Shown here piece by piece: positions 1-14,770 of a DNA stretch of 64,000 bases (position 1 is its first letter; every line of letters starts with the position of its first letter). A program made the position numbers and the translations under genes. Source of the stretch: an uncultured Chloroflexia bacterium (GTDB lineage: Bacteria > Chloroflexota > Limnocylindria > Limnocylindrales > CSP1-4); assembly GCA_963712745.1 (NCBI GenBank), contig CAVQJC010000020.1, positions 128,001 through 192,000 on the forward strand. The letters run 5' to 3'. The notes under the pieces were generated by a model that saw only the letters and a program-made list of their open reading frames with translations, did not search any database and was not told where the DNA came from.

Positions 1-584
1 TCCGGCTGACCGTCACCGGCGGTCGTCCCGGCGCAGGACCCGTGTCGATGGTCGTGGTCCTGCCCGTCGCGCTGGACCTCGAGGACGTGCGCGCCGCAGG
101 TATCGCCGCAGTCTCGCTGCAGCTGGGGACCGATCCGCGGCTGCGCAGGGACGCGCCCTGGCTGCTCGACGGAGTGAAGTCGACCTCGTACGCGGTGAAC
201 ATGGCCGCTTTCGACGAGGCTCGCCGTCGGGGTGCGCAGGACGCTGTCTTCATCGCCGCTGATGGCTCCGTGCTCGAGGGGCCGGTCACCAACGTGTGGT
301 GGCGGCGCGGGAGCTCGCTCTTCACCCCCGCGATCGACCTCGGCATCCTGGCCGGCGTGACCCGGGCCTATGTCATCCGCATCGCCGACGAGCTCGGCTA
401 TGGCGTGTCCGAAGGCTGGTTCCCACTGGCCGAGATGGCCGCCGCCGACGAGGCCTTCAGCTCGTCATCGGTGCGCGAGATCATGCCTATCGTGCGGCTG
501 GACGGCGAGCCCGTCGGCGACGGCAGGCCGGGCGAGGCTGCGCGGGCACTGCAGCAGGGTCTGCGGCGGGCTGCCCACGCGTAG
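1..584 (+). CDS. Aminotransferase class IV (branched-chain aminotransferase / aminodeoxychorismate lyase family), 5' end outside window
   Basis: Motifs VKSTSY (PLP Lys), LEGPVTNVW, GILAGVTR; frame open from the window start. Confidence 0.85.
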   Translation, partial: RLTVTGGRPGAGPVSMVVVLPVALDLEDVRAAGIAAVSLQLGTDPRLRRDAPWLLDGVKSTSYAVNMAAFDEARRRGAQDAVFIAADGSVLEGPVTNVWWRRGSSLFTPAIDLGILAGVTRAYVIRIADELGYGVSEGWFPLAEMAAADEAFSSSSVREIMPIVRLDGEPVGDGRPGEAARALQQGLRRAAHA

Positions 585-589
585 CGGGG

Positions 590-862
590 AATCACAAGAC
601 CCACACTCCGTGCGTGGGTCCTAGGTCATCCGGTTCGCGCATCACAGGGCCCGCGCAGTCGCACACGACCCCAGTCGCGCGGATCAGCCGGCGCGAGTAT
701 CAGATGAGATGTTGCCCGCTCGGGGCCTGGTCAGAAGGTTGCTCATCCCGCGCGATCCATCCGCTGTCTGCGGCAGCGCCCACGACCTCTCCGAGGCCTT
801 GGGGCTCCGATTATTCCGGACCTGCCGGTTGCGGAGATCGACCATTCGATCCGAGTACCTCC
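590..862 (-). ncRNA. Candidate standalone structured RNA (~270 nt), family unknown
   Basis: Lies between convergent genes; minus-strand TTCCCT-N17-TACAGT promoter, nested long-range helices and a 3' terminal hairpin. Confidence 0.55.
596..622 (-). terminator. Stem-loop at the 3' end of the candidate RNA (possibly bidirectional terminator)
   Basis: AAGACCCAC...GTGGGTCCT inverted repeat; only a short U-rich tail. Confidence 0.5.
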
Positions 863-868
863 AGCCCG

Positions 869-897
869 ACTGTACTCCTTGGCGGCGGCGGAGGGAA
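869..897 (-). promoter_or_regulatory. Sigma70-like promoter for the candidate RNA
   Basis: -35 TTCCCT (897-892), 17-nt spacer, -10 TACAGT (874-869). Confidence 0.45.
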
Positions 898-919
898 GCC
901 CCTTTGGTGAGACGCGGTC

Positions 920-1531
920 TCAGGCCCTCGGCGGCTCCTCGGTGTCGCCCGGCTGGAAGCTGCCGCCCTCGGCCTTGAGCTTGGCCTTGTAGGCCCGCTT
1001 CTTGTCCTGATAGGCCGCGAGCGCCTCTGCCGAGTCGACATCGGCCAGCGTGGGGTAGCCCGGCATGACCTCGGCAAGTCCGTCGAGCTGCAATCCGAAC
1101 CGTCGGCCCAGGATGGCCAACAGCGCCTTGGCCTTCATCTCGCCGATACCGGGCAGGGCCAGCAGGCGCCGCTCGAGGTCCGGCCCGTCGACCGCCTCGG
1201 TCCAGATGCGGGCGGCATCGCCTGCATAGGTCTCGGCGATCGCCGCGCAGAACGCCTGGGTCCGCTTGGCCATATTGCCCGGAAAGCGATGCAGGGCTGG
1301 CCGCTCGCGAAAGGCCGCTTCGAGGTCGCCCGGGTCCATGGCCGCGATGTCGCCGGCGGTCAGCGTGCCGATCCGTCGGCGCAGCTCGAGCGGACCGGCA
1401 AAGGCCTTCTGGACACTCACCTGCTGGTCGAGCACGAAGCCGATGAGCAAGGCCATCGGGTCGCTGGCGAGGAGGGCATCGGCCTCGGGGTCGCCGGTGA
1501 AGGGCAGCATGTCGGGTGGCATGGCATTCAT
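920..1531 (-). CDS. HhH-GPD superfamily base-excision repair-like protein
   Basis: LLIGFVLDQQ, HRFPGNMA, HhH motif ALPGIGEMKA; ATG 6 nt after TACCCT (-10). Confidence 0.85.
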   Translation of the reverse strand: MNAMPPDMLPFTGDPEADALLASDPMALLIGFVLDQQVSVQKAFAGPLELRRRIGTLTAGDIAAMDPGDLEAAFRERPALHRFPGNMAKRTQAFCAAIAETYAGDAARIWTEAVDGPDLERRLLALPGIGEMKAKALLAILGRRFGLQLDGLAEVMPGYPTLADVDSAEALAAYQDKKRAYKAKLKAEGGSFQPGDTEEPPRA

Positions 1532-1770
1532 GGCGGCAGGGTACCCTGACCATCGTTCGAGGGCACATTCGAACAGATGCGCTACACTGCCTGTACATCC
1601 CGAAAGCCGCGCGCGGTCGAGCACCGGAGAACCCGGCCTGCTCCCGCTGACGCGAGCCGACCAACGATCATCCGCTCCCCGCGACGGGATGCGTCGAGCG
1701 GAACACACCACTCAGGCCTGGCCCGAGCGCACCTGCGAGGTCGCGCCGCCGGCCGAAAGGGATACCCACC

Positions 1771-1995
1771 ATGCTTTCACGAGCACCTCACACATCACTC
1801 CACATCAGTCGGCGGAGCCACGCTCAGCGGCGCCTCCGCCGGGCCGCGACCCATCGCCTCTTCTGCAGCACCAACGGCTGCACCACGTTCATGGTCACTG
1901 CCGACGATGGACGCAGCGCCACCTGCCCGGTCTGCGGCCTCGAGCGCAAGCTGCGCCCGCAGGGGGAAGGTGCGGTCGCCGCACGCGCCCACTGA
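1771..1995 (+). CDS. Small Zn-ribbon protein (74 aa)
   Basis: C-x4-C ... CPVC; AAGGGA RBS-like sequence before the ATG. Confidence 0.55.
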   Translation: MLSRAPHTSLHISRRSHAQRRLRRAATHRLFCSTNGCTTFMVTADDGRSATCPVCGLERKLRPQGEGAVAARAH

Positions 1996-2048
1996 CCCCA
2001 GGCCGCCGGTATGTGACAGGCCCGGGCCCAGCGTGCGAGCATCCGCGC

Positions 2049-2546
2049 GTGGAACGCTCGCGTGAACCGACCAGGGAGTCGCTCGTCCGGAGGGACGCCG
2101 AGGGTGCGATGCGAACAGCTCCGTCCTGGGAGACGTTGACCGAGCGCCTCATCCGCGAGGCCCAGGCTGACGGGCACTTCGACGACCTGCCTGGCCACGG
2201 CCGACCGCTCAAGCTCGACGACGTCCACTTCGCGGGGGAAATGGCCCTGGCGCACCATTTGCTGCACAACGCCGGTGTCGCACCCCCTTGGATCGAGACG
2301 GACAAGGAAGCCAGGGGCGCACTCGCCGCCATCGAAGCGTTGTTGGTGCGCGCACGGGGATCTGGGCCAGCCTCGGCCGCTCGCCTCGGCGCGGAGCTGG
2401 AGGCGTTCGCCGACGCTCACGACGAGGCCGCCGACCGCCTGGAGCGACTGGCTCCGACCATCCGGCAGCACCGCACCCAGCTCGATCGCCCTCGCCTGCG
2501 GCGCCGGCTCGAGATGGCCCTGGCCACTGAGCGCGGCCCGTCTTGA
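2049..2546 (+). CDS. DUF1992 / DnaJ-C28-like domain protein
   Basis: ERLIREAQADGHFDDLPGHGRPL ... NAGVAPPWIE signature; start uncertain (2049 or 2109). Confidence 0.8.
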   Translation: MERSREPTRESLVRRDAEGAMRTAPSWETLTERLIREAQADGHFDDLPGHGRPLKLDDVHFAGEMALAHHLLHNAGVAPPWIETDKEARGALAAIEALLVRARGSGPASAARLGAELEAFADAHDEAADRLERLAPTIRQHRTQLDRPRLRRRLEMALATERGPS

Positions 2547-2926
2547 CCGAGAACGTGAGGCGGCCGGAGTCGCAGATGGAAGACGACCTCGTCGCCTGGG
2601 GCAAGGTCATCCGACTCGAGACTATCGGCCGTCGCACTGGGTCGACTCGCTCGGTCACGGTCGGATTCGTCCAGGAGCCGGCTGGTTCGCTCCTGCTGGC
2701 CGCCGGTTCGAAGGACGCGAGCTGGTCGGCCAACCTGCGCGCCGAGCCCCGCTGCCAGGCCACCCTCGCAGGACGGCGCCGGTCCTACGTGGCCGTCCCG
2801 CTCTCCGGAGCCGAGCGCCAGGCGGCGGTGGCAGCCCTCATCCTGAAGTACGGCACGCCGGCCGAGCGCCTGGGGAACGGCCCGGTGTTTCGCCTGCAAA
2901 CTTCGGACATCGACACCGACAGCTGA
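2543..2926 (+). CDS. Deazaflavin (F420)-dependent nitroreductase family protein
   Basis: LETIGRRTG..R, WSANLRAEP and PVFRL motifs. Confidence 0.75.
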   Translation: MTENVRRPESQMEDDLVAWGKVIRLETIGRRTGSTRSVTVGFVQEPAGSLLLAAGSKDASWSANLRAEPRCQATLAGRRRSYVAVPLSGAERQAAVAALILKYGTPAERLGNGPVFRLQTSDIDTDS

Positions 2927-3113
2927 TCGGCCACGTGGCTAAGTACCGATCGCGGTCGCAACGTCTACACTGGCACCATCGCAAGAACGCGCTCTCGTTG
3001 ATTCCTGTCGCGGCACCTCCGGGTCGGTGCCCTGCGCGATACGCGCTGATACGAATGTGACCGCCCTGGACCTGGCCCTGAGGGTGGGCGGCACGACGAC
3101 AGCAAGGATCCGC

Positions 3114-13099: not shown

Positions 13100-14220
13100 G
13101 TCCCGACCAGGACTGAGTGATCAGACTGGTCACCGAGCCGGGCCACCGGGTGAGCACTGAGTACAGCCGGACCCTCCGAGTCCCAGGGCTAGAGCGTGCC
13201 CCCGGTGGTCGGCGAGGACGGTCGAGATGGCTGCTGGGGTGGCGTGCCGATCGAGCACTGGTCCATCAGCTCGCCGCGACCCTCCTCCTGCGGCTCCGCA
13301 CGAGCGAAGGGAGGACGGGACGATGATCTTCGTCGGCATCGACTGGGCCGAGGCGCACCACGACGTGTGCGTGCTCGACGACCGCGGGGAGGTGCTGGCC
13401 ACGCGGCGGGTCTCCGAAGGCCTCGAGGGCGTGGCCCGGATGCACGCCCTCTTCGGCGAGCATGCCGACGAGCCCGAGGCGGTGATCGTCGGCATCGAGA
13501 CCGACCGGGGCCTGCTCGTCACCGCCCTGCTCGCGGCCGGCTATACGGTCCACGCGGTCAACCCCCTCGCCGCTTCCCGCTACCGGGAGCGCCACACGGC
13601 GAGTCGGGCCAAGCCCGACCGCGGCGATGCTCATGTCCTCGCCGATCTCGTGCGCACGGACCGTCACCACCATCGGGTCGTCGCTCCCGACAGCGAGCTG
13701 CACGGCGCCATCAAGGTCCTCGCCCGCAGCCATCAGAACCTCGTCTGGACCCGGCAGCGCCAGACCAGCGCGCTGCGCAGCGCCTTGCGCGAGTACTACC
13801 CCGGAGCCCTCGCCGCCTTCGAGGAGCTCGCCCATCCTGATGCGCTCGCGGTGCTGAGGGTGGCGCCCGACCCCGAACGAGGACGACGGCTCAGCGAAGC
13901 CCGCATCGTCTCGCTCCTGCGGCGGGCTGGCCGGCAGCGCAACCTCGAGCGACGGGCTCGCGAGATCCGTTCGGCGCTGCAGGTCCCGCAGCTGGCGGCG
14001 CCAGCGCTGGTGGTTGAGGCCCAGGCGGCCAACGCGGTCGCGCTCGTGGCGGTCATCGCCACGCTGAACGAGCAGATAACCCGGCTCGAGGCCGAGCTCG
14101 TCGACGCCTTCGGTCGACACCCGGACGCCGAGATCCTACGAGGTCTGCCCGGACTGGGCGACTTCCTCGGCGCCCGGGTGCTCGCGGAGTTCGGGGATGC
14201 CCCCGACCGCTATGCCGATG
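13100..14220 (+). mobile_element. IS110-family insertion sequence remnant (3'-truncated); ends approximate
   Basis: About 200-nt structured leader plus a DEDD transposase that breaks off near 14220. Confidence 0.8.
13323..14220 (+). pseudogene. IS110 transposase lacking its C-terminal part
   Basis: VGIDW, GIET, KPDRGDA (RuvC-like DEDD), LPGLG; family-like sequence stops at DRYAD, before the expected ...SG motif. Confidence 0.82.
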
Positions 14221-14770
14221 CTAGCCCGCCGTCGCTTCGCTGCCCCTCGAGCTCGCGCACGAAGGCCGCGACATGGTCGAGCGCGTCGTTGAGCACCGGC
14301 TTGAGGCTATGGCCGACCTTGGGGTAGGTCACCAGCCGCGCCGAAGGCAGTCGCTCCTCCAGGGCGCGTCGGAGCAGGTCCAACCTGGCGAACGGGTCGG
14401 ACTCTCCTGAGAACAGCAGGACCGGCAGCCCCTCCAGGCGGCCCCAATGTGCGCTCCGAACCTCCCAGTCCGGCTGTCCGGGTCGATGCAGGGGGTAGCT
14501 GAAGCAGACCAGGCCCGCGCAGATACCTTCGGACTCGGCGGCCAGCAGGCTGGCCACGCGTCCGCCGTATGACTGGCCACCGATGACCAGCCGCGATGGT
14601 GACTCCGTCTGGGCCTCGACCTGGGCGCGATAGGCCGGCACCGCTCGCTCGGCCTTGCGCAGAGGCAGGTCGATGGCGCTCGCCGGCACGCCTCTGGCCT
14701 CGAGTCCGTCGACGTGCGCCTGCATCGAGGCGGCCTTGCCGGAGGCGCCGTGGGCGATGAGGATGCGCAT
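14210..14770 (-). CDS. Small alpha/beta-hydrolase
   Basis: AHGA, GQSYGG, YPLH, GESDPF, GHSL. Confidence 0.85.
   Translation of the reverse strand: MRILIAHGASGKAASMQAHVDGLEARGVPASAIDLPLRKAERAVPAYRAQVEAQTESPSRLVIGGQSYGGRVASLLAAESEGICAGLVCFSYPLHRPGQPDWEVRSAHWGRLEGLPVLLFSGESDPFARLDLLRRALEERLPSARLVTYPKVGHSLKPVLNDALDHVAAFVRELEGQRSDGGLASA

What the first reader, a model, noticed from the sequence alone, without database searches (positions are those of the whole stretch)
590..897. Orphan ~270-nt highly structured RNA with its own promoter and terminal hairpin
Seen: the 335-bp gap between two convergent genes carries, on the minus strand, TTCCCT-N17-TACAGT (897-869) and then a nested fold. The 5' AGGU (860-857) pairs with ACCU (626-623), and GCAGG (825-821) with CCUGU (648-644). 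Internal helices include GAUCGA/UCGAUC (851-836), GGAUC-GCGCG/CGCGC-GAUCC (758-749 with 695-681) and GAUGAG/CUCAUC (747-742 with 708-703). A closing hairpin lies at 622-596. No same-strand ORF follows, so it cannot be a cis leader. I do not see RNase P, tmRNA, 6S or canonical SRP signatures; the resemblance to SRP helix 8 (CCAGGCCC...GCAAC) and to the raiA motif 5' end is only loose. Inference: a trans-acting structured ncRNA or ribozyme, possibly undescribed.
Basis: partly seen in the sequence, partly recalled or inferred. Interest (0 to 1): 0.75.

Follow-up and report, generated by a model that had tools for sequence, protein, structure and literature searches.

The report
Structured RNA that encodes a small protein
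The supposed orphan non-coding RNA is a conserved, strongly folded transcript carrying a 53-codon gene for a small basic protein of unknown function, found in one family of Chloroflexota bacteria.

Summary
The 335-bp gap (585-919) holds a real, conserved minus-strand unit, but it is not simply non-coding. The -10 box TACAGT (874-869) and the terminal hairpin (623-595) are there and recur in relatives. The frame stays open in 17 of 18 homologs found by DNA search and in 29 of 29 found by a covariance model. Changes fall on synonymous sites (pN/pS 0.45, against 1.5 and 1.2 in the other frames), including Ser TCN/AGY and Arg CGN/AGR switches. GC3 is raised. An SD-like motif with an in-frame start is present in 84 of 85 sequences.

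The GGAGG pairs with codons Asn-Leu (AACCUY), and a long hairpin shows compensatory changes (42 of 64 pairs on the model-fitted alignment).

No Rfam, Pfam, NCBIfam or PDB match. RNA-library contigs from four runs cover the ORF region.

Verdict: a new small-protein gene with a structured, probably self-masking mRNA. A second, RNA-level role is not excluded. Protein function is unknown. Moderate interest.

The parts
892..897 (-). -35-like hexamer TTCCCT (weak)
   Evidence: Read. A CTTCC-like string is conserved only within the genus. No sigma-70 consensus site was called.
869..874 (-). -10 box TACAGT (TAnnnT)
   Evidence: Read. A TAnnnT box about 12-14 nt upstream of the SD recurs in most of the 85 distinct homologs (listing; about 70 by eye, not tallied by the script).
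857..862 (-). Shine-Dalgarno GGAGGU; also the 5' strand of closing helix P1. The transcript start is inferred at about 861-863.
   Evidence: GAGGT is invariant in 18 of 18. An SD-like motif lies 5-13 nt before an in-frame ATG/GTG/TTG in 84 of 85. It pairs with 739-734.
684..845 (-). Small ORF: ATG 845-843, 53 codons, stop TGA 686-684. Product P0001, ending ...LPQTADGSRGMSNLLTRPRAGNISSDTRAG.
831..834 (-). P3 5' strand CCGC, pairs with GCGG 764-761
   Evidence: 100% paired in 18 of 18. Recovered in most of the separately aligned subgroups (by eye).
816..828 (-). P4 small hairpin CCGG-CAGGU-CCGG
   Evidence: Replaced by CCCC/GGGG, CCC/GGG, ACGGA/UCCGU in other groups. All 4 pairs are changed on both sides on the model-fitted alignment, 87.3% paired (helix 7).
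771..809 (-). P5 long hairpin: CGGAGC.../...GCU-G-CCG, with apical stem GGCCUC/GAGGUC
   Evidence: Every pair shows changes on both sides: 9 of 9 and 6 of 6 (helices 8 and 9); 5 of 7 on the sequence-only alignment.
734..739 (-). Anti-SD ACCUUC inside codons Asn-Leu-Leu; 3' strand of P1
   Evidence: AACCT is invariant in 18 of 18. The Leu codon here is CTC 69 or CTT 13 of 84 and never CTG, while the Leu seven... rather thirteen codons upstream (position -17) is CTG in 66 of 79. P1 is 87.5% paired, with CG/GC/GU/UG exchange at its outer pair.
714..726 (-). Local hairpin GCCC-CGAGC-GGGC over codons (x)-Pro-Arg-Ala-Gly
   Evidence: 93.5% paired in 85 sequences. Outer pair GC 66, CG 9, UG 2, other 8, made of two synonymous or variable third positions. 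An alternative pairing of CCCCG with 674-669 is proposed by RNAalifold without covariation.
669..693 (-). 3' conserved block: hairpin GCCGG-CUGAU-CCGCGC with the stop codon in its loop, then CUGGGG
   Evidence: Mostly invariant or one-sided changes, so weakly supported (helices 10-13).
595..623 (-). Terminator-like hairpin (stem includes GACCCACGC/GUGUGGGUC) followed by UGAUUCC
   Evidence: Compensatory variants such as GACCCGCGC/GCGCGGGUC and ACCGGCGCCC/GGGCGCCGGU occur in relatives.

Best explanation
The gap holds a single-gene transcription unit on the minus strand: promoter (-10 at 874-869), short leader with GGAGG (862-857), a 53-codon ORF (845-684), a conserved 3' block and a terminator hairpin (623-595).

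The ORF encodes a small, basic, probably disordered protein. Its N-terminal half varies. Its C-terminal 30 residues (L-P-x-T-A-D-x-S-x-G-x-S-N-L-x-T-x-P-R-A-G-N-I-S-S/T-D-T-R-A-G) are almost invariant.

The mRNA is also selected for its fold. The SD pairs with codons Asn-Leu about 120 nt downstream (P1). This encloses a compact stack of helices (P3, P4, P5) made of the N-terminal coding region.

Shown here: frame conservation, a protein-type substitution pattern, conserved helices with compensatory changes, and presence in RNA libraries.

Inferred: the folded RNA masks its own ribosome-binding site, so translation is gated. Ribosomes would load co-transcriptionally or when the fold is opened, and a translating ribosome that reaches the anti-SD frees the SD for the next one. 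The compact fold would also make the transcript long-lived. The protein's partner is unknown. A basic disordered peptide that binds a nucleic acid or ribonucleoprotein, possibly its own mRNA in a feedback loop, is my best guess and is not tested.
For: Conservation: the DNA search found the element in 17 of 24 same-genus genomes and 0 of 16 of the neighbouring family.

Frame: open in the same register in 17 of 18 homologs. The gaps I inspected in the variable part of the DNA alignment are 6, 9, 12 and 12 nt long. The frame is also open in 29 of 29 loci found by covariance model (L104-L133 without L109; three of them repeat earlier genomes). SD plus in-frame start in 84 of 85.

Substitutions: pN/pS is 0.445 in frame 0, against 1.518 and 1.187 in the shifted frames, on the 17 DNA-found homologs. 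It is 0.557 against 1.184 and 1.100 on 83 sequences, using only codons outside the peptide pattern that fetched them. Residues outside that pattern are invariant with many codons: Arg +10 uses six codons in 84 of 84, Gly -8 four codons in 84 of 84, Asp -12 GAC 42 and GAT 41. Within the pattern, Ser +6 uses AGC/AGT/TCN.

Composition: GC3 is 0.77 in the window ORF and 0.81 on average over 85 sequences, against GC1 0.57-0.61 and GC2 0.60-0.67. Flanking genes have GC3 0.82-0.87.

Gene callers elsewhere: 43 small unnamed or 'hypothetical' proteins and 51 clusters in 1.84 billion representatives.

Fold. Codon bias at the anti-SD. Hairpin covariation at synonymous sites. G-U pairs are frequent in the helices, which fits the minus strand.

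RNA libraries: 19 RNA-labelled runs from 13 studies hold 0.29-0.44 of the sampled words. In 4 of 4 runs laid, contigs with no differing letter cover 664-843, 697-843 (two runs) and 704-850.
Against: One sequence type (L003 and L052) has two single-base insertions that break the frame, yet still scores 198.6 bits with the RNA model. This is either a sequencing error or a lineage in which the RNA survives without the full peptide.

In the N-terminal half, compensatory base changes alter the amino acids, for example CGG AGC...CTG CCG against CGC AGG...CTG GCG (read). Some synonymous sites are frozen: Pro CCC 78 of 84 with CCG 0. RNA-level selection is therefore strong, and the RNA may do more than carry the message.

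There is no peptide or ribosome-profiling evidence. No fold is predicted (pLDDT 57.5, pTM 0.11). No family was found.

Thermodynamic folding of single sequences puts the SD on the anti-SD with P>0.5 in only 33 of 85 (median P unpaired 0.22). The window's own fold is no better than shuffles. Contigs cannot show the strand, the ends or the level of the RNA.

The covariance-model alignment is fitted to the structure it tests, and the RNAalifold structure was derived from the alignment it is counted on.
Confidence: 0.75

Rival explanations
1. Dual-function RNA. The stable folded transcript acts as an RNA in its own right, for example as a base-pairing regulator, a protein sponge or the RNA part of a particle formed with its own peptide. 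It also encodes the conserved peptide. This overlaps with the best explanation rather than excluding it.
For: Helices in the N-terminal coding half are kept by compensatory changes while the amino acids drift. Synonymous sites inside helices are frozen or co-vary. The frame-broken sequence type keeps the fold. RNA-library contigs of four runs cover this region. The Rfam 6S model matched 0 of 41 family genomes, so an abundant housekeeping RNA role is formally unfilled.
Against: No target, partner or conserved single-stranded seed was identified. All 29 model-found loci keep the ORF, so the RNA was never seen without the gene. The RNA model and the protein profile both miss the same genera, g5 and g11. 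SD masking and stability alone could explain the fold. The 6S control rings in only 5 of 14 known genomes, so not finding 6S means little.
Confidence: 0.15
2. Pure non-coding structured RNA. The open frame would be a by-product of high G+C content and nucleotide conservation.
For: No Rfam family and a conserved fold. In a genome with 69% G+C, a 30-codon stretch stays open by chance about half the time (my estimate from base composition, not a tool result). One sequence type has a broken frame.
Against: Ser TCN/AGY and Arg CGN/AGR switches keep the residue. pN/pS is low only in frame 0. The inspected gaps are multiples of three. SD and start are kept in 84 of 85. GC3 is raised. The helix GAUGAG/CUCAUC that would explain the Ser block as RNA is not compensated.
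Confidence: 0.03
3. Type I toxin-like module: a stable, self-masked mRNA for a small toxic peptide, held in check by an antisense RNA.
For: Small ORF, own promoter and terminator, SD paired with a distant segment, compact fold. By recall, these are traits of hok, tisB and aapA1 mRNAs.
Against: The peptide is hydrophilic and basic with no hydrophobic stretch and no predicted helix of membrane length. There is a single copy per genome in the 51 genomes with a match. No PADLOC match. I did not search for an antisense promoter.
Confidence: 0.03
4. Regulatory arrest peptide. The conserved C-terminal part, with two R-A-G motifs, would stall the ribosome and so control RNA folding or decay.
For: Variable N-terminus and invariant C-terminus. 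P-R-A-G-N and T-R-A-G, the latter followed directly by a stop codon in 26 of 84 sequences, resemble SecM's R-A-G-P (motif recalled). RAPP-type arrest peptides are described in PMC10951233 and PMC10987492, of which I saw only the search listing and the start of the abstracts.
Against: No Pro follows either RAG. There is no same-strand downstream gene here. Neighbours differ between subgroups and are not Sec or YidC genes.
Confidence: 0.03

Closest known systems
Dual-function (coding) small RNAs such as SgrS/SgrT, RNAIII/hld and SR1/SR1P (recalled)
   Same: A transcript of 200-300 nt with its own promoter and terminator, extensive conserved structure and a small conserved ORF.
   Different: No trans target is known. 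The ORF fills most of the RNA. Different phylum. No sequence or Rfam relation.
Type I toxin mRNAs (hok, tisB, aapA1; recalled)
   Same: A small ORF in a compact mRNA whose SD is masked by long-range pairing.
   Different: The peptide is hydrophilic and basic, not a membrane helix. No antisense RNA is known. Single copy.
Self-regulated mRNAs of small basic proteins, for example ribosomal-protein operon leaders and lineage-specific mini ribosomal proteins bS22, bL37 and bTHX (recalled)
   Same: A small, Arg-rich, disordered product; a consensus GGAGG; mRNA structure at the ribosome-binding site.
   Different: Patchy: 50 of 91 genomes of one family and none of 209 in four other families of the class. 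No evidence of ribosome association. No match to PDB chains.
6S RNA / Ms1 RNA
   Same: A small RNA with its own promoter that is present in RNA libraries. The Rfam 6S model matched 0 of 41 family genomes.
   Different: No 6S model match at the locus. The consensus fold has two domains, not a rod with paired ends. It carries a selected ORF. The Ms1 flanking-gene phrases (HAD-IB hydrolase, oxidoreductase; PMC9130861, passages read) do not fit Aminotran_4 and HhH-GPD.
SecM / RAPP-type arrest peptides
   Same: Conserved C-terminal R-A-G, variable N-terminus.
   Different: No Pro after RAG and no downstream Sec or YidC gene.

Membership tests
   0 matches at E<=1 in window 1-3000. 0 matches on the element in 20 homologous loci at gathering score. 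SRP RNA, RNase P RNA and tmRNA lie elsewhere in the genome.
6S RNA | Rod-like fold with paired 5' and 3' ends and a large central bubble | tested here: not met
   Consensus folds give a 5' domain closed by SD/anti-SD and a separate 3' domain.
6S RNA | Binds RNA polymerase holoenzyme | not testable with these tools
   Needs biochemistry.
Protein-coding small ORF | Conserved open frame with SD and start codon | tested here: met
   17 of 18, 84 of 85, 29 of 29 model-found loci.
Protein-coding small ORF | Substitutions concentrated at synonymous sites in one frame only | tested here: met
   pN/pS 0.445 against 1.518 and 1.187; codon table; GC3.
Protein-coding small ORF | Product detected | not testable with these tools
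   Needs proteomics or ribosome profiling.
Dual-function sRNA | Conserved secondary structure with covariation | tested here: met
   15 of 41 pairs changed on both sides, against 3-7 in slid controls. 42 of 64, against 23-31, on the model-fitted alignment.
Dual-function sRNA | A trans-acting RNA activity separate from the peptide | not tested
   No target search was made and no genetics is available.
Type I toxin | Small hydrophobic membrane peptide | tested here: not met
   Sequence of P0001. No long helix in the model.
Type I toxin | Cis- or trans-encoded antisense RNA antitoxin | not tested
   The contigs laid are unstranded.
SecM/RAPP arrest peptide | R-A-(P/G)-P at the arrest point | tested here: not met
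   RAG is followed by Asn in 84 of 84. The second RAG is followed by a stop (26 of 84) or by varied residues.
SecM/RAPP arrest peptide | Encoded upstream of a protein-localisation gene on the same strand | tested here: not met
   A convergent Aminotran_4 gene lies downstream. Neighbours vary.
Ms1 RNA | Actinobacterial synteny (HAD-IB hydrolase / oxidoreductase flanks) | tested here: not met
   Flanks are Aminotran_4 and TIGR03252 HhH-GPD. Relatives are titled Chloroflexota. Synteny phrases are from PMC9130861 (passages); its supplementary lists could not be seen.

The most novel reading that the evidence does not exclude
The transcript is a bifunctional RNA. It would be a long-lived, compactly folded RNA that works as an RNA (regulator, sponge, or the RNA half of a small particle formed with its own peptide). 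It would be translated only in bursts when the SD/anti-SD clamp opens. That would make it, to my knowledge (recall, no search made), the first coding sRNA described in Chloroflexota. It also shows protein and RNA constraints written into the same codons.
Probability: 0.18. Interest if true: 0.7.

Novelty: new member of a known kind. Interest (0 to 1): 0.5.

Why it matters
This corrects a likely mis-annotation: a gap that looks like an orphan ncRNA gene is a small-protein gene. It defines an undescribed small-protein family together with an undescribed conserved mRNA structure in a poorly studied, mostly uncultured bacterial lineage.

RNA helices and a protein motif are encoded in the same bases here, with synonymous sites that co-vary to keep a hairpin and a Leu codon restricted to the forms that pair with the SD. 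That makes it a clean natural case for studying how coding and structural constraints share sequence, and how small-protein synthesis can be gated by the message itself.

If the RNA also acts in trans, it would extend coding sRNAs to a new phylum.

Tried and rejected
Single-sequence folding of the gap gave no signal on either strand. The consensus promoter/terminator scan called nothing at the element.

Neighbour clustering on stop-to-stop ORFs produced one giant spurious cluster. Otherwise only subgroup-level synteny appeared: at most 20 of 98 loci share a neighbour. Pfam on ten representative neighbours gave no common theme: DUF4097, SHOCT-like, SIS, Glyco_hydro_25, HTH_17 with NTP_transf_2, and five with nothing.

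The protein gave no lead. ESM Atlas returned no usable hit. AlphaFold gave low confidence, so I made no fold search. PDB sequence search returned 0 and PADLOC 0. The search for longer, fused forms gave 10 proteins in clusters of one or two members with no shared domain. I read them as over-extended gene calls in G+C-rich DNA.

Paper searches for 'PRAGNIS' and for Limnocylindria with 'noncoding RNA' found 0 papers. 'Not in print' rests on these two searches only.

RNA-library contigs: no contig of the four runs covered 853-919, 585-663 or the flanking genes, except one contig of X16 at 300-405. Adapter letters abut the laid parts at 844, 852, 675 and 682. These could hint at a shorter processed species of about 180 nt that lacks the SD and the terminator. 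However, contigs cannot show ends, strand or level, and assembly breaks at branch points, so I draw no conclusion from uncovered parts or from depth.

Single-sequence pairing probabilities for SD/anti-SD were mixed (33 of 85 above 0.5).

The 3' domain helices are mostly invariant. Two exclusive pairings of the CCCC run (local hairpin, or pairing with 674-669) could not be told apart, except that only the local hairpin has a co-varying pair.

Supplementary files were not consulted; those of PMC9130861 may list Ms1 sequences that I could not compare.

Full report
What is at the coordinates. The window's first 1.7 kb holds a plus-strand gene ending at 584 (Pfam Aminotran_4, E 6e-37) and a minus-strand gene ending at 920 (NCBIfam TIGR03252, HhH-GPD-type repair protein, E 2.6e-55). 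On its own the gap folds no better than dinucleotide shuffles (z +0.37 minus strand, +0.78 plus strand). The consensus scan calls neither a promoter nor a terminator there. Rfam gives nothing: 0 matches at E<=1 in window 1-3000.

It is conserved. A DNA search of 41 related genomes found the gap's sequence in 17 of 24 genomes of the same genus (70-85% identity) and in 0 of 16 of a neighbouring family of about 1.1-Mb genomes. The alignment of 18 homologs shows invariant blocks: GAGGT near the 5' end, AACCT, CCCCG-N-GCGGG, and the stem of the terminal hairpin.

It carries a gene. Translating the 18 homologs shows one frame that stays open in 17 of them and gives the same peptide end...TADGSxGMSNLxTxPRAGNISSDTRAG. 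In the window this is ATG 845-843 to TGA 686-684, 53 codons (P0001), with GGAGG 12 nt upstream of the ATG.

- The gaps I inspected in the variable part are 6, 9, 12 and 12 bases long.
- Two adjacent Ser codons switch between TCA TCT and AGC AGT/AGC.
- One sequence type (L003, also L052) has two single-base insertions and a broken frame.
- Gene callers elsewhere have predicted this protein: 43 proteins of 29-93 aa at E<=1, all unnamed or 'hypothetical'.
- A profile search of 1.84 billion representatives finds 51 clusters at E<=0.001, nearly all small proteins. The four long ones match in many short stretches, which I read as low-complexity noise.
- A search for longer forms gave 10 proteins in clusters of one or two members without a shared domain.
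- No Pfam, NCBIfam, PADLOC or PDB-sequence match and no ESM Atlas hit.

A wider set. A back-translated peptide pattern found 161 stretches in species-representative genomes. The 80 kept are almost all titled Chloroflexota, Chloroflexia, or Candidatus Limnocylindria/Limnocylindrales MAGs. Because that search required P-R-A-G-N-I-S-S/T-D, I read coding evidence only from residues outside the pattern and from the DNA-found set.

- Outside the pattern, in 84 distinct cores, Arg +10 is Arg in 84 of 84 through six codons. Gly -8 is Gly in 84 of 84 through four codons. Asp -12 is GAC 42 and GAT 41. Thr -14 is Thr in 81 of 84 through four codons.
- Nei-Gojobori counts give pN/pS 0.445 in the ORF's frame, against 1.518 and 1.187 in the two shifted frames, for the 17 DNA-found homologs. 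They give 0.557 against 1.184 and 1.100 for 83 sequences on codons -17 to -1.
- An SD-like motif 5-13 nt before an in-frame ATG (46), GTG (37) or TTG (1) is present in 84 of 85 distinct sequences.
- GC3 (0.77 in the window, 0.81 on average) exceeds GC1 and GC2 in both halves of the ORF, as in the flanking genes.
- A covariance model built from RNA sequence and structure found 45 of 121 family genomes (one of them unpublished, G366). All 29 loci that I examined (L109 left out; three repeat earlier genomes) keep the frame and the peptide, one of them with PRTGN.

I take translation as established as far as comparative data can establish it.

The RNAalifold consensus of the same alignment pairs in 95.9% of cells. 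It has 15 of 41 pairs changed on both sides, against 3-7 in the slid controls, and a covariation score of 0.214 against 0.025-0.072. That structure was derived from this alignment.

Ten subgroups, aligned and folded separately, largely return one architecture:
- P1: the SD region with AACCUC/U in codons Asn-Leu.
- P3: CCGC with GCGG.
- P4: a short variable hairpin.
- P5: a long hairpin based on CGGAGC / GCU-G-CCG.
- A 3' domain.

A covariance model from 21 close sequences aligned 77 of 85 loci. On that model-fitted alignment 83.2% of cells pair, against 38-42% when slid. 42 of 64 pairs have changes on both sides, against 23-31. The covariation score is 0.216 against 0.038-0.054. All pairs of P4 and P5 have double changes. 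The 3' domain helices are mostly invariant and therefore uninformative.

Protein and RNA constraints share bases.
- The Leu codon in the anti-SD is CTC (69) or CTT (13) of 84 and never CTG. The Leu at position -17 is CTG in 66 of 79.
- Pro 0 is CCC in 78 of 84 and never CCG.
- The third base of the preceding codon and the third base of the Gly codon co-vary to keep a G-C pair that closes the hairpin GCCC-CGNGC-GGGC: G/C 66, C/G 9, U/G 2, mismatched 8 of 85.
- In the N-terminal half, helix-preserving double changes alter the residues: CGG AGC ... CTG CCG becomes CGC AGG ... CTG GCG (read).

So the N-terminal half is shaped mainly by the fold and the C-terminal half mainly by the peptide.

Expression. 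Nineteen RNA-labelled public runs from 13 studies hold 0.29-0.44 of the sampled 31-mers of 560-940. In the four runs laid on 300-1300, contigs identical to the window cover 664-843 (X1), 697-843 (X2, X3) and 704-850 (X16). X2 and X3 also hold variant contigs, which I read as related strains. The runs are contigs, so they show presence in RNA libraries only, not strand, ends or level.

Distribution and context. A protein-profile search of 301 genomes of the class found the gene in 51. All are in one family (50 of 91 besides the window's genome), with one copy each, and none in four other families (0 of 209). Within the family some genera have it throughout (g1 3 of 3, g18 4 of 4, g3 11 of 12). 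In others it was not found (g5 0 of 15, g10 0 of 5, g11 0 of 3). The RNA model gives the same pattern for the genera sampled by both searches (g5 0 of 4, g11 0 of 4). Neighbours are conserved only within subgroups, so the unit stands alone.

How it most likely works. Shown: a promoter-proximal SD and start, a selected small ORF, a compact conserved fold in which the SD faces an anti-SD inside the ORF, a conserved terminator-like hairpin, and presence in RNA libraries. Inferred: the fold masks the ribosome-binding site. Translation then depends on co-transcriptional loading or on opening of P1, and a ribosome that reaches codons Asn-Leu frees the SD for the next one. The compact fold would also lengthen RNA life. 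The product is basic and predicted without fold (AlphaFold pLDDT 57.5, pTM 0.11). A binding peptide for a nucleic acid or ribonucleoprotein, perhaps its own mRNA, is a guess. A separate RNA-level function is not excluded. The frame-broken but well-folded sequence type and the frozen synonymous sites speak for it. The strict co-occurrence of RNA and ORF, and the lack of any identified target, speak against giving it priority.

Comparison with known things. It is not RNase P RNA, tmRNA or SRP RNA, which lie elsewhere in the genome. It is not 6S-like in fold. The Rfam 6S model finds nothing in this genome or in 41 family genomes, but that model rings in only 5 of 14 control genomes. It does not fit Ms1 synteny. 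It resembles coding sRNAs and type I toxin mRNAs in layout, but it lacks a membrane peptide. Its RAG motifs recall SecM, but they lack the Pro and the downstream gene.

Verdict. The finding is a new small-protein gene with a conserved, probably self-masking mRNA structure, of moderate interest (0.5). There is about an 18% chance that the RNA is also a regulator in its own right.

Noticed in passing
window 14144-14225 (-): Rfam match to Ms_AS-4 (RF02464, 'Actinobacteria sRNA'), 64.5 bits against a gathering score of 50. It is the only Rfam hit in the 64-kb window. This is odd, because the relatives' records are titled Chloroflexota.
   Followed up: no
G000 contigs C1:344032-344131 and C2:6709-6808: Two SRP RNA matches of nearly equal score (76.3 and 75.2 bits). 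There are also paired weak tmRNA-model hits of equal score on C1 and C2. This suggests a duplicated or redundantly assembled region in a genome with 5% contamination.
   Followed up: no
G000 and 40 other genomes of the family: The Rfam 6S model matched 0 of 41 genomes. The model rings in only 5 of 14 control genomes, so this may only mean a divergent 6S RNA.
   Followed up: partly
L003 and L052: One sequence type has two single-base insertions, one in the P4 loop and one just after the anti-SD. They break the ORF, yet the RNA model still scores 198.6 bits. This is either a sequencing error or a decaying gene.
   Followed up: partly
window 684-1664 (-): The small ORF's frame stays open upstream for 326 codons, across the HhH-GPD gene in another frame. 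This is a typical spurious long ORF of G+C-rich DNA, and may explain some over-long gene calls for this protein elsewhere.
   Followed up: partly
L046, L053, L064, L065, L069, L072, L075, L078, L080, L087, L096, L099: In 11-12 loci of several subgroups the unit sits between opposite-strand genes for a DUF4097 'toastrack' protein and a protein with a SHOCT-like domain.
   Followed up: partly
window 595-623 and the matching place in L002-L100: The terminator stem is conserved in sequence (GACCCACGC...GCGTGGGTC) across many subgroups, with compensated variants in others. That is more conservation than a plain terminator needs. It may also serve the convergent gene, or have a role in the RNA.
   Followed up: no
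L060, L069, L080: Three contigs that carry the gene come from bins titled Cellulomonas, Binatia and Deferrimicrobiaceae. They are probably mis-binned contigs.
   Followed up: no
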